Virus record (IMG/VR): IMGVR_UViG_3300050821_007659
Coordinates: 7,904-71,903 of that record
Reading direction: 5' to 3' (one strand)
DNA length: 64,000 bases
From: a virus
Shown here: positions 22,728 through 24,549 of the stretch, piece by piece
Numbering within the stretch: position 1 is the stretch's first letter
Layout of the letters: every line of letters starts with the position of its first letter
Notes under the pieces: generated by a model
The model's database searches: none
Told to the model about the DNA's origin: nothing
Seen by the model: the letters and a program-made list of their open reading frames with translations, nothing else
Position numbers and translations under genes: made by a program

Positions 22728-23841
22728 ATGTTGAATCGGTTTCGCAAACTTTTCATGCCGCTGGTGCTCGTTGCGCTCGGGCTGGTGTCGGTGATGGCTG
22801 CGCCGCCCAGTCAGGCAGCCGCTACGTCCAACTACTTCCAGAATCACATCATCGACCAGGTGTTCCGCGCGCAGACGGCACTTGCACCGGCGACGATCTA
22901 TGTGGAGCTGGCGACCTCGACTGCCACGGCACAGGCCTGCGGCACCGAGGTCAGCGGTGGAAGCTACGCACGGCAGGCGATCACGTCGAGTCTTGCCAAC
23001 TGGGCGGGCACGCAAGGCGCCGGCACAACCTCGGCATCCACTAACTCGTCGGGCTCAAGTGGTACGACGAGCAACAACGCGGCCATCACCTATCCCGCAC
23101 CAACAGCAAACTGGACGACAATTACCACCTTCTGCCTGATGGACGCGAGTTCGGGCGGCAACGAGCTGGTATACGCTGGATAATGCGGCGTCTCTCGCAG
23201 CAATGCGGGATGTTAGGAGTCAAATCTGGCATTGACGACTCCGAAGACAGTGTTGTTTTAATGTTCGCTGTCTCTAAATCGGCTCAAATCGGTGAACCCC
23301 TCCCGTGAAAGCGCGGGGAATCCCGAGGGTAAGGCTCAGAGAAAGCTGAGAATCCCGTAACGACTCAGGATTGAGATTCCTGGATGGCCCAACAAAAGAG
23401 GCCATAACACGCCGACCCTGATCATGACCAAGTGAATCGAGCGTTCTGCACTCGACACGATCAGGTGAATGTATAGTCTGGCCCGCTGGAAACAGCGCGG
23501 ATTTTCGGAACAACGGTGATGCTAGAAGTCAGAGATTCGCGATCTGACAGTGGCTCACTCAGCAGCAATGTTGAGATGATAACGGCGTGAATTGCTGGAA
23601 ACCCTAACGTAAAGTCGAGGGCAATCAGCAAGCAAGCGTGTTAGGAATAACACGAAGCTTCAGAGACTAGGACGTACGATCCAGAACGGATTATGAGGTC
23701 CCACGAGCGCGCCGCACCCCACGAGGGTGAAGATATAGTCCGATTCTCCGTTGAAAAGCGGAGTGGCCAGATAAAGAGCTGGCCTATAACATGTTGGCAC
23801 CGAGTTTTGCAGCTGGAGCCCTAACAGTCACAATTGGTTAG
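22728..23841 (+). CDS. Intron-split putative virion protein, join(22728-23177,23229-23251,23508-23523,23797-23841), 177 aa
   Basis: Joining the four exons gives a continuous frame ending GGNELVYA|ALTTPKTV|NNGDA|APSFAAGALTVTIG*. This is the C-terminus I recall for phage proteins containing TEVSGGSYARQAI. AAGGAG RBS before ATG 22728. Confidence 0.85.
23178..23228 (+). ncRNA. 51-nt core-less group I mini-intron (P1/P10 guide, P2, terminal G)
   Basis: ACGCU (23173-77) pairs with GGCGU (23187-91) with U-G at the 5' junction; UAAUGC (23181-86) pairs with 3' exon GCAUUG; P2 is UCUCGCA-GCAA-UGCGGGA; last base is G23228; contains in-frame TAA and TAG. Confidence 0.75.
23252..23507 (+). ncRNA. Group I intron (256 nt, no ORF, no P2)
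   Basis: P1 AGACAGU/GCUGUCU; P10 UGUUC/GAACA; P3 UCGGC/GCCGA; P7 A(C)GACU/AGUCU; two hairpins between P7 and P3'; P8 CCUGAUC/GAUCAGG; P9 CGCUG-GAAA-CAGCG; terminal G. Confidence 0.9.
23524..23796 (+). ncRNA. Group I intron (273 nt, no ORF)
   Basis: Canonical elements P AAUUGCUGGAA, Q AAUCAGCA, R UUCAGAGACUA, S AAGAUAUAGUCC; P2 CUCAGCA-GCAA-UGUUGAG; P3 CGGCGUG/CGCGCCG. P9.0 GA/UU favours terminal G23796 over G23793. Confidence 0.92.
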
Positions 23842-23901
23842 GGGGAATTGTTGAGTTATAATGGACGGACCCGGATCGCGCTACCAACGCAATCCGGGCC
23901 C
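23834..23901 (+). promoter_or_regulatory. Promoter and leader hairpin of the HNH gene
   Basis: TTGGTT, 17-nt spacer, TATAAT (23857-62), followed by a CCCGGAT...ATCCGGG stem. Confidence 0.55.
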
Positions 23902-23931
23902 TAACCACTACCCGCTTTCTCGGAGTGAGCA

Positions 23932-24549
23932 ATGGCTACCCATGAGACTATCACGGCGAAGATCTGTTCTCGTTGTAAACGAGATCTACCTTTGGACCAA
24001 TTCTATAAGGACGCGCGTAAGCCCAATAGAAGGGCTCATTGCAGGGATTGCTGCAACCGAGCGCGCAAAGCGGCGCGAGAAAATGCCACTCCCGAAGAGC
24101 AGAAACGCGCTCTTGAGATGGCCCGCCAGTGGAAGCTGGATAATGCGGAACGCACTGCGAAGGTAAAGCGCGCATGGGATGCTGCCAATCCAGAGAAGGC
24201 GGCCGAGTCCTCTCGAAAAGCATCCACTAAATACCGCGCCAGCAATGGTGCAGTATTTTCCGCTCGTCTTTTGCCCCATCGATTTCGACGAAGCAAGCGC
24301 AAGCGCCCGCCGAAAGCCGAATTGAAGATCGTGCCGGCGTGGGCTGATTTCGCGCAGATCGACGAAGTTTATCGGCTATGCGCAGAGCGTAATGCGTCTG
24401 ACGTAGATGGTGTTGAATGGCAGGTGGACCATATAGTTCCCTTGCAATCGAGTGCCGTGTGCGGCCTCCACGTTCAAGACAATCTTTCGATCATTCCGAA
24501 ACGTCAGAATATCGTCAAAGGCAACCGGCACTGGCCCGACATGCCCTAA
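23932..24549 (+). CDS. Free-standing HNH endonuclease
   Basis: N-terminal CSRC...CRDC Zn finger; C-terminal WQVDHIVPL...CGLHVQDNL...N..KGN. Confidence 0.88.
   Translation: MATHETITAKICSRCKRDLPLDQFYKDARKPNRRAHCRDCCNRARKAARENATPEEQKRALEMARQWKLDNAERTAKVKRAWDAANPEKAAESSRKASTKYRASNGAVFSARLLPHRFRRSKRKRPPKAELKIVPAWADFAQIDEVYRLCAERNASDVDGVEWQVDHIVPLQSSAVCGLHVQDNLSIIPKRQNIVKGNRHWPDMP

What the first reader, a model, noticed from the sequence alone, without database searches (positions are those of the whole stretch)
23178..23228. Core-less 51-nt group I mini-intron in a phage gene
Seen in sequence: the frame stops at Y-A-G-TAA and resumes 51 nt later, in frame, as ALTTPKTV. The insert has every splice-site-selecting element of a group I intron. 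An 11-nt guide, UAAUGCGGCGU (23181-91), pairs with the 5' exon (ACGCU, with U23177-G23187 at the cut) and, immediately adjacent, with the 3' exon (GCAUUG, P10). It also has a 7-bp GCAA-capped P2 much like that of intron 23524-23796, and a terminal G23228. There is no room for P3-P9. Established knowledge: group I catalysis needs the P3-P9 core with the G-binding site in P7. Inference: this is a dependent intron that must be excised by another intron's core. I know of no described phage example, but I could not search the literature.
Basis: partly seen in the sequence, partly recalled or inferred. Interest (0 to 1): 0.95.

Follow-up and report, generated by a model that had tools for sequence, protein, structure and literature searches.

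The report
Core-less mini group I intron
A 51-base insert that breaks a soil phage's tail-fibre gene is the shrunken remnant of a self-splicing (group I) intron that kept its splice-site guides but lost its catalytic part, so it probably has to be cut out by one of the two complete introns further down the same gene.

Summary
The gene at 22728-23841 belongs to Pfam Gp80 (fibre I protein of podophage GP4). It is split by a 51-nt insert (23178-23228) and by two full group I introns (23252-23507 and 23524-23796). Removing exactly these three pieces gives a 177-aa protein that aligns without gaps to 13 of 13 uninterrupted homologues.

The insert has U.G at the 5' cut, a contiguous 11-nt P10+P1 guide, a 7-bp GCAA-capped hairpin and a terminal G. 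It has no P3-P9 core.

New here: from guide to last base the insert aligns with the 5' domain of intron B (1 of 2000 shuffles reach the score). It is therefore a deletion derivative of a B-type intron.

A related phage seen in another study's DNA run keeps the insert almost unchanged. Its 11 listed changes in the last part of exon 1 and in exons 2 and 4 are all synonymous, so the gene is alive and the insert must be removed or bypassed.

No spliced RNA junction was seen. Helper-dependent splicing stays an inference (about 0.5). Rivals are a dead relic and a gene-60-like ribosome hop, for which no matched landing codon gives the right protein.

Earlier agents of this scan noted similar core-less mini-introns on other phage DNA. 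In print I found only 56-81-nt degenerate group I introns of fungal rDNA.

The parts
22728..23177 (+). Exon 1 of the fibre gene (150 codons, ends ..NELVYA)
   Evidence: Pfam PF23140 Gp80, E 1.8e-30, profile positions 2-104 of 128, so the C-terminal part is missing. Homologues.
23178..23228 (+). 51-nt core-less mini-intron (starts GGA UAA, ends ..CUG)
   Evidence: Precise removal gives YA|ALTTPKTV, as in the homologues.
23173..23191 (+). P1 hairpin: exon ACGCU (23173-77) pairs with guide GGCGU (23187-91), with U23177.G23187 at the cut
23181..23186 (+). P10 half of the guide (UAAUGC). It pairs with the first six bases of exon 2 (GCAUUG, 23229-34) and contains the in-frame UAA stop.
23193..23210 (+). 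P2-like hairpin: 7 bp with a GCAA tetraloop (23200-03). The loop is GUAA in relative X3.
23216..23242 (+). Hairpin across the 3' splice site: intron GGAGUC (23216-21) pairs with exon 2 GACUCC (23237-42). GGAG is also Shine-Dalgarno-like.
   Evidence: in both minimum-energy folds. No covariation data.
23229..23251 (+). Exon 2, 23 nt (ALTTPKT + first two bases of the Val codon)
23252..23507 (+). Group I intron A, 256 nt, no P2. P1 guide GCUGUCU at 23267-73. Ends in G23507.
   Evidence: Rfam RF00028, 23.6 bits, below the gathering score of 50, E 0.0039 in the 3-kb search. P1 appears in the fold. Two compensatory pair changes in hairpin 23335-50 in X3.
23508..23523 (+). Exon 3, 16 nt (last base of the Val codon + NNGDA)
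23524..23796 (+). Group I intron B, 273 nt, with its own guide GGCUCA and a 7-bp GCAA-capped P2 (23558-75)
   Evidence: Rfam RF00028, 70.8 bits, E 2.8e-17. Its 5' domain is homologous to the mini-intron.
23797..23841 (+). Exon 4 (APSFAAGALTVTIG + TAG)
23932..24549 (+). Free-standing HNH / endonuclease VII-like nuclease gene, 90 nt after the last exon. It is a possible homing partner of the intron block.
   Evidence: phrog_1035 (E 3e-18) and phrog_2255, HNH endonuclease (E 1.9e-6).

Best explanation
The 51-nt insert is a degenerate group I intron. A B-type intron once sat at a second GCU|GCA site of the gene and later lost everything from P4 to just before its 3' end. What remains is the P10+P1 guide, P2 with its GNRA loop, J2/3, the 5' strand of P3, J3/4 and a terminal G.

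The insert carries two in-frame stops, and the downstream exons are still under protein-level selection. It therefore has to be removed from the mRNA.

The most likely route is ordinary group I chemistry done by a borrowed core. The mini-intron's own guide holds exon 1 (P1, with U.G at the cut) and exon 2 (P10) side by side. This P1-P2 module docks into the catalytic core of a complete intron on the same transcript. That core is either intron A, 23 nt downstream, or intron B, whose own P1-P2 module has the same geometry. Guanosine attacks after U23177, and then G23228 takes the G-binding site so that exon 1 joins exon 2.

Shown: the anatomy, the homology to intron B, the need for removal, and conservation in relatives. 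Inferred: RNA-level excision, the use of a neighbour's core, and which neighbour.
For: (1) Precise removal. Joining 22728-23177, 23229-23251, 23508-23523 and 23797-23841 gives 177 aa that align gap-free across all three junctions to 13 of 13 homologues. The gene runs uninterrupted across this site in 159 of 160 viral and metagenome loci (L063 ends at its contig end before the site) and in 13 of 13 bacterial genome loci.

(2) Splice-site elements. U at -1 pairs with G; P10+P1 form a contiguous 11-nt guide; the last base is G. The guide has P about 0.0025 by shuffling and 0.0042 by the genomic background. Both wobble pairs work only on the sense strand, as RNA.

(3) Group I origin. Insert 23187-23228 aligns along its whole length with intron B 23552-23597 (score 33; 1 of 2000 shuffles reach it). 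It does not align significantly with intron A (1211 of 2000). In both, 13 nt separate the wobble G from the tetraloop, counted on the sequence. Both sites read GCU|GCA.

(4) The gene is alive.
- In the X3 relative, which carries the F-to-W change seen in protein P0002, all 9 listed changes in 23132-23166 are synonymous. So are the single listed changes in exon 2 and exon 4.
- The site lies in the middle of a predicted beta-strand (residues 141-153 of homologue P0022; mean pLDDT of the model 65).
- The solved GP4 protein 8JOU aligns through to the C-terminus.

(5) Conservation.
- X3 has only one listed change in the 51 nt (23201 C>U, GCAA to GUAA, still a GNRA loop). It has 9 changes in the 35 nt 23132-23166 just upstream.
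- The X7 contig shows no listed change in the insert.
- Proteins P0002 (87% identical) and P0004 (80%) stop at the same place (YAG*, YAE*).

(6) Helpers are on the same transcript. The whole 71.9-kb genome has only two group I cores, and both lie downstream in this gene. Intron A shows two compensatory pair changes in X3 (A23338G with U23347C; G23339A with C23346U), so it is a constrained RNA.

(7) Precedent for sharing. In E. coli, halves of two tandem Tetrahymena introns flanking a 24-nt exon complement each other (PMC10136302, section 3.2 read).
Against: - No spliced junction 23177|23229 was seen.
- The only RNA-library contig across the insert's 3' junction (X7, 23172-23315) keeps the insert. 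It also keeps intron A's 5' splice site, so it is precursor RNA or carried-over DNA and says little either way.
- No natural case of one group I core splicing a second, core-less intron has been demonstrated in any paper I could find.
- The low divergence of the insert in X3 is no lower than that of intron A (1 of 51 against 13 substitutions and 2 indels in 256). It starts abruptly near 23167, so recent co-transfer of the block [mini, exon 2, intron A] could explain it as well as selection could.
- Up to 3 further X3 differences on the stretch were not listed by the tool.
- No covariation is available for P1, P10 or P2.
- The insert also shows several bypass-like features: GGA UAA, hairpins, and GGAG followed by an AU-rich spacer.
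Confidence: 0.5

Rival explanations
1. Dead or decaying relic. The insert is an intron stump that cannot be removed. The phage makes only the 151-aa truncated protein (..VYAG), and exons 2-4 look intact only because the deletion is recent.
For: The insert is a deletion derivative without a core. No spliced RNA was seen. Gene callers report 150-151-aa products in three phages.
Against: - The insert is shared by phages whose fibre proteins are only 80-87% identical, so it is not very recent.
- Exon 2 and exon 4 changes in X3 are synonymous (1 of 1 each), and their 27 residues match the family consensus.
- Truncation would cut a predicted beta-strand in half and remove the last strand.
- P10 is 6 bp, against 2 bp in intron B by my own reading. 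That looks like adaptation after the insertion.
- The genome is rated 100% complete.
Confidence: 0.2
2. Ribosomal bypass like T4 gene 60. The ribosome takes off at or before GGA UAA, skips about 50 nt with the help of the hairpins and the GGAG motif, and lands at exon 2. The nearby HNH nuclease would play the part of MobA.
For: - GGA is followed directly by a stop.
- The take-off region lies in a hairpin, followed by a second, GNRA-capped hairpin.
- GGAG lies 6 nt before CUG and 9 nt before GCA, with the AU-rich spacer UCAAAU.
- The gap length is 51 nt.
- An HNH gene lies 704 nt downstream.
- These are features listed for bypass cassettes in bioRxiv 10.1101/2022.08.31.505936 (abstract and the conservation section read).
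Against: - All described cassettes have take-off and landing codons read by one tRNA (same preprint).
- Here no GGN codon lies in a position that continues in the LTTPKTV frame. GGA at 23208 is followed by UGU UAG. GGA at 23216 and GGC at 23228 lead into the wrong frame.
- The only matched pair, GCU 23175 / GCA 23229, has no stop in the A site and would give a protein one residue shorter than every homologue. A GGA take-off that resumed at 23229 would give a protein one residue longer.
- GGA is the least used Gly codon but is not rare (8.7 per 1000 codons).
- P0004 has Glu, not Gly, at the would-be take-off codon.
- Bypass does not explain the U.G, the terminal G, the P10/P1 guide or the homology to intron B.
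Confidence: 0.1
3. Autonomous minimal ribozyme. The 51 nt, together with the exon sequences it pairs with (P1, P10 and the GGAGUC/GACUCC helix), splices by itself, as claimed for the 67-nt PaSSU intron of Phialophora.
For: The element set is the same as in the fungal small introns: P1, a central hairpin, P10 and a pairing between mid-intron and 3' exon (PMC3160393, abstract and discussion read).
Against: There is no recognisable guanosine-binding site. The fungal claim itself needed about 300 nt of exon context. Here two full cores sit on the same transcript.
Confidence: 0.07
4. Split gene. Translation stops at UAA 23181 and restarts after GGAG at CUG 23226 or UUG 23232, giving a separate 27-28-aa C-terminal peptide that assembles with the 151-aa part.
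For: AGGAG at 23215-19 has spacing typical of this phage's start sites.
Against: CUG is a very poor start codon, and UUG lies 12 nt from the GGAG. GGAG is also explained by its pairing with exon 2. No homologue is split this way among the loci examined.
Confidence: 0.03

Closest known systems
Small 'degenerate' group I introns (56-81 nt) of fungal nuclear SSU rDNA, e.g. PaSSU of Phialophora americana, Arthonia lapidicola, Porpidia crustulata (PMC3160393)
   Same: They are tiny and lack the P3-P9 core. [quoted passage not shown] They are thought to derive from full introns by deletion, and they must be removed for the gene to work.
   Different: They lie in rRNA genes of eukaryotes, not in a phage protein-coding gene. 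They are reported to splice on their own with long exon context. One uses a terminal U. They are not next to a full intron. Here the parent-type intron is still present in the same gene.
Several group I introns in one phage gene with short exons and cross-talk: Staphylococcus phage Twort orf142 (23-nt exon, exon skipping) and engineered tandem Tetrahymena introns (PMC10136302). The Twort paper itself was not held; I know it from citations.
   Same: Three interruptions fall within a few dozen coding bases, and there is a 23-nt exon. Parts of two neighbouring introns can be used together as one ribozyme.
   Different: In those cases every natural intron has its own complete core, and cross-talk gives exon skipping. 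Here one partner has no core and would depend on the other for normal exon inclusion.
T4 gene 60 bypass cassette with MobA (bioRxiv 10.1101/2022.08.31.505936)
   Same: A roughly 50-nt stop-containing insert in a phage gene. GGA plus a stop at its start. Hairpins. An SD-like motif before the resumption point. An HNH nuclease gene nearby.
   Different: There is no matched landing codon that gives the family's protein. The insert has group I splice-site elements and is homologous to a group I intron.
Canonical self-splicing group I introns (Rfam RF00028), such as introns A and B of this gene
   Same: U.G at the 5' splice site, an internal guide forming P1 and P10, P2, and a terminal G. Sequence homology to intron B.
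   Different: It lacks P3-P9 and the guanosine-binding site, so it cannot be a self-sufficient ribozyme of this family.

Membership tests
Group I intron (self-splicing, RF00028) | 5' splice site after a U that forms a U.G wobble in P1 with an internal guide | tested here: met
   U23177.G23187 within the 5-bp P1 ACGCU/GGCGU.
Group I intron (self-splicing, RF00028) | The guide also pairs with the 3' exon (P10), and the intron ends in G | tested here: met
   UAAUGC pairs with GCAUUG (6 bp), contiguous with P1. G23228 is the last base.
Group I intron (self-splicing, RF00028) | Catalytic core P3-P9 with the guanosine-binding site in P7 | tested here: not met
   No Rfam match over 23178-23228 at E up to 1. 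Only 18 nt follow P2, and they align with J2/3, the 5' strand of P3 and J3/4 of intron B.
Group I intron (self-splicing, RF00028) | Sequence homology to a bona fide group I intron | tested here: met
   Insert 23187-23228 against intron B 23552-23597: 1 of 2000 shuffles reach the score.
Group I intron (self-splicing, RF00028) | GTP-dependent excision and exon ligation | not testable with these tools
   Needs in vitro or in vivo RNA work. RNA runs gave no junction.
Helper-dependent (non-autonomous) intron, proposed class | A complete core of the same intron class on the same transcript | tested here: met
   Introns A and B lie downstream in the same gene and are the only two cores in the 71.9-kb genome. 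X3 and X7 contigs carry the insert together with intron A.
Helper-dependent (non-autonomous) intron, proposed class | A spliced junction exists and depends on the helper core | not testable with these tools
   No junction-bearing contig in the 2 RNA runs laid. Raw reads were not available.
Gene-60-type translational bypass cassette | Take-off and landing codons read by the same tRNA, with decoding resuming in the correct frame | tested here: not met
   No GGN landing codon continues as LTTPKTV. The GCU/GCA pair gives a one-residue deletion. The criterion is from 10.1101/2022.08.31.505936.
Gene-60-type translational bypass cassette | A stop or hungry codon right after take-off, a take-off stem-loop, and an SD-like motif 5-7 nt before landing | tested here: inconclusive
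   GGA UAA is present. Hairpins are present. GGAG lies 6 nt before CUG but 9 nt before GCA. GGA makes up 10% of Gly codons.
Fungal small degenerate group I introns | P1, a central hairpin, P10 and a mid-intron/3'-exon pairing, with no other core helices | tested here: met
   The element list is from PMC3160393.
Fungal small degenerate group I introns | Location in nuclear SSU rDNA and common descent with the Phialophora/lichen clade | tested here: not met
   This is a phage protein-coding gene, and its nearest relative is intron B of the same gene.

The most novel reading that the evidence does not exclude
The insert is a working, non-autonomous group I intron: a 'MITE-like' stump that keeps only its own splice-site guide module and is spliced by the ribozyme core of a full intron on the same transcript. 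The origin is visible here, because the parent-type intron (B) still sits 295 nt downstream at a second GCU|GCA site. Together with the similar cases this scan has noted in other soil phages, it would define a class of helper-dependent introns in which one ribozyme serves several introns.
Probability: 0.5. Interest if true: 0.9.

Novelty: new variant of a known kind. Interest (0 to 1): 0.8.

Why it matters
Group I introns are defined by carrying their own catalyst. A natural intron that keeps only the substrate-side module (P1, P10, P2, terminal G) and relies on a neighbour's core would be the group I counterpart of non-autonomous transposons.

It would show how selfish introns can degenerate yet persist. 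It would give a natural system for studying how a ribozyme core chooses between competing P1 modules. It would also mean that stop-containing gaps of about 30-60 nt in phage genes, now annotated as truncated genes or suspected hops, may be introns that covariance models cannot see.

This locus is a good test case. Parent-type intron, stump and a second intron lie within 620 nt, and the expected products differ by single residues.

Tried and rejected

Searches for relatives that found no interrupted gene or no close relative:
- Fibre-protein scans of viral contigs (80 loci kept of 108 relatives), metagenome contigs (80 kept of 91) and genome contigs (13 loci) returned only uninterrupted genes.
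- A terminase scan found no close relative: 60% identity or less over 80 loci.

DNA pattern scans of viral contigs:
- The guide+loop pattern gave 99 stretches. The 80 held as loci were scored against the locus. The best local score was 21, and inspection showed chance matches.
- The hairpin pattern gave 0 matches.
- The intron A core pattern gave 0 matches.

Other searches that led nowhere:
- Searching the spurious 41-aa ORF over the insert, as a proxy for relatives' DNA, found nothing.
- Cluster look-up of 8 truncated proteins gave no further members of use.
- GenBank phages share only intron B's core with the window.
- A second copy of the P2 motif in the window: only intron B itself matched.
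- Further group I cores in the rest of the genome: none.

RNA runs. X2 contigs cover only 22868-23146 and 23267-23459. X7 covers 23172-23477 in pieces. Nothing covers exon 4 or a junction. This lack of cover is no evidence for or against splicing.

Weak signals that I treat as chance or coincidence:
- The R1162-like antisense RNA match at 23866-23939 (29.5 bits, gathering score 55).
- The overall fold z-scores (-1.56 and -2.16) are weak and were not used as evidence.

Readings rejected:
- Read-through of the insert: two in-frame stops and 17 extra residues inside a strand.
- DNA-level deletion between the CTGG repeats: the 50-nt period would shift the frame.
- Rfam's P1 placement for introns A and B: it puts the known splice sites on the wrong strand of the helix.

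Literature. Searches for a phage or helper-dependent core-less group I intron found none. Landthaler & Shub 1999 is not held.
Full report
WHAT IS THERE

The window is 64 kb of a 71.9-kb IMG/VR virus record rated 100% complete. The gene starting at 22728 matches Pfam PF23140, 'Podophage GP4 fiber I protein gp80' (E 1.8e-30). Only profile positions 2-104 of 128 are covered, because the open frame stops at ..NELVYAG-TAA. Uninterrupted homologues read ..GGNELIYA-ALTTPKTV-NNGDA-APSFAAGALTITIG.

In the window these pieces are all present, in order and in frame with each other, but separated by three inserts:
- 23178-23228, 51 nt;
- 23252-23507, 256 nt (Rfam group I, 23.6 bits, below the gathering score);
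- 23524-23796, 273 nt (Rfam group I, 70.8 bits).

Joining the four exons by coordinates gives 177 aa that align without a gap across all junctions to 13 of 13 homologues. The gene is uninterrupted at this place in 159 of 160 viral and metagenome loci (one locus ends before it) and in 13 of 13 betaproteobacterial genome loci.

Among the 22 homologous proteins I fetched, two others stop at exactly the same place: P0002 ends ..VYAG and P0004 ends ..VYAE. Four stop at the intron A site (..KTV).

THE INSERT'S ANATOMY

- P1: exon ACGCU (23173-77) pairs with GGCGU (23187-91), with U23177.G23187 at the cut.
- P10: directly 5' of P1 in the guide, UAAUGC (23181-86) pairs with the first six bases of exon 2.
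- Hairpin: 7 bp with a GCAA loop (23193-23210).
- Terminal base: G23228.

P1, the hairpin and a third helix (intron GGAGUC 23216-21 with exon 2 GACUCC 23237-42) appear in the minimum-energy folds of both a 101-nt and a 371-nt context.

A contiguous P10+P1 guide of 11 or more pairs with U.G at the cut arises in 0.25% of 200000 shuffles of the insert. It arises at 0.42% of 6907 comparable places in the window. That is significant but not overwhelming on its own.

Both wobble pairs would be A.C mismatches on the other strand, so the pairing makes sense only as sense-strand RNA.

Of the 23 nt of exon 2, 19 lie in helices with intron guides: P10 of the mini-intron, the GGAGUC helix, and P1 of intron A.

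ORIGIN (NEW HERE)

From the wobble G to its last base the insert aligns with intron B. The aligned parts are B's guide (GGC), its P2 (the nine bases GCAGCAAUG are identical), J2/3, the 5' strand of P3, J3/4 and the first bases of P4. Only 1 of 2000 shuffles reach the score. Against intron A the alignment is at chance level.

Both introns sit at GCU|GCA. In both, 13 nt separate the wobble G from the tetraloop.

The insert is therefore a deletion derivative of a B-type intron that had entered a second, look-alike site 39 coding bases upstream. It then lost P4 through nearly its 3' end.

Its P10 is 6 bp. By my own reading of the sequence, intron B's is only about 2 bp. This looks like adaptation after the deletion.

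MUST IT BE REMOVED?

Yes, unless the gene is dead, and the gene does not look dead.

A DNA contig from another study (X3, 8.8 kb) carries a relative whose N-terminus has the F-to-W change of P0002.
- All 9 of its listed differences in 23132-23166 are synonymous.
- The single listed differences in exon 2 and exon 4 are also synonymous.
- The same contig has one listed difference in the 51-nt insert. It turns GCAA into GUAA, still a GNRA loop.
- It also has two compensatory pair changes in a hairpin of intron A.

The tool left up to three differences on the stretch unlisted, so 'one' is a minimum.

The insertion point lies in the middle of a beta-strand in an AlphaFold model of homologue P0022 (mean pLDDT 65, about 80 around the strand). 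The solved GP4 protein (8JOU) aligns to the very C-terminus.

HOW IS IT REMOVED?

This is not shown. The two RNA libraries laid on the locus give no junction. One contig (X7) bridges the insert's 3' junction unspliced, but it also bridges intron A's 5' splice site unspliced, so it is precursor RNA or DNA carry-over.

I favour group I chemistry with a borrowed core, at about 0.5, for four reasons:
- The insert has exactly the substrate-side elements and nothing else.
- The genome's only two cores lie downstream on the same transcript.
- The module geometry of the parent-type intron is preserved.
- Halves of tandem group I introns flanking a 24-nt exon have been shown to complement each other in E. 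coli (PMC10136302).

Intron A is the nearest core (23 nt away), has no P2 of its own, and appears to travel with the insert as one low-divergence block that begins near 23167. Intron B is the homologue. I cannot choose between them.

RIVALS

Gene-60-like hop (0.1). This fits superficially: GGA UAA, hairpins, and GGAG plus an AU-rich spacer. It fails the one feature shared by all described cassettes, which is matched take-off and landing codons (10.1101/2022.08.31.505936). No GGN landing site continues in the right frame. The GCU/GCA pair would delete a residue that every homologue has.

Dead relic (0.2). This fits the lack of a core. It does not fit the synonymous-only changes, the intact downstream exons, or the presence of the insert in phages only 80-87% identical.

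Autonomous minimal ribozyme (0.07). This is modelled on the fungal PaSSU claim.

Split gene with restart (0.03). This is the least likely of the four.

COMPARISON WITH WHAT IS KNOWN

The closest described things are the 56-81-nt 'degenerate' group I introns of fungal SSU rDNA. They have the same element set: P1, a hairpin, P10 and a mid-intron/3'-exon pairing (PMC3160393; abstract, background and discussion read).

My seven literature searches found no phage example and no demonstrated natural case of one group I core serving a core-less neighbour.

Earlier agents of this scan have noted similar mini-introns upstream of full group I introns in other soil-phage genomes. Those are unchecked notes. 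I used them as leads only.

VERDICT

The insert is a real, conserved group I intron stump that must be removed for the gene to work. Helper-dependent splicing is the best but unproven mechanism. This locus adds the visible parent-type intron to the picture.

Noticed in passing
window 23178-23796: The mini-intron's 5' site and intron B's 3' site are both GCU|GCA. Joining exon 1 directly to exon 4 would be in frame and give a product 13 residues shorter (exon skipping, as reported for Twort orf142). The mini guide GGCGU can also pair with the end of exon 3 (AUGCU).
   Followed up: partly
window 23163-23170 with 23278-23285: In the 371-nt fold, exon 1 GAGCUGGU pairs with AUCGGCUC, which is the 5' strand of intron A's P3. 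This encloses P1 and P2 of the mini-intron, the 3'-site hairpin and intron A's P1 in one four-way junction. It could be an inactive alternative fold, or chance.
   Followed up: no
window 23132-23523, compared with run X3: Divergence from the X3 relative drops abruptly near 23167: 9 changes in 35 nt before it and none in the next 34 nt. The block [mini-intron, exon 2, intron A] may therefore be exchanged as one cassette. The free-standing HNH gene at 23932-24549 may be involved.
   Followed up: partly
window 23524-23804, compared with run X3: In the X3 relative the intron B site holds 271 other letters (less than 88% alike) in place of 281. The downstream intron is replaced or strongly diverged, while the mini-intron is conserved.
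   Followed up: no
window 23280-23477, runs X3 and X7: Short contigs in a DNA run and an RNA run match parts of intron A's core but carry different hairpins (loose ends, or 122 other letters between). Intron A therefore belongs to a wider family in soil samples.
   Followed up: no
window 23866-23939: Weak match to the R1162-like plasmid antisense RNA (RF00043, 29.5 bits, gathering score 55) in the leader of the HNH gene. Probably chance.
   Followed up: no
The + strand translation of that range gave no PHROG hit, and the ORF seems to lie on the minus strand. I did not pursue it.
   Followed up: no
L261-L273: The 13 bacterial genomes with fibre-gene homologues are all betaproteobacteria (Massilia, Variovorax, Rhizobacter, Paraburkholderia, Rhodocyclaceae and others). 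This suggests the host range of this phage group.
   Followed up: no
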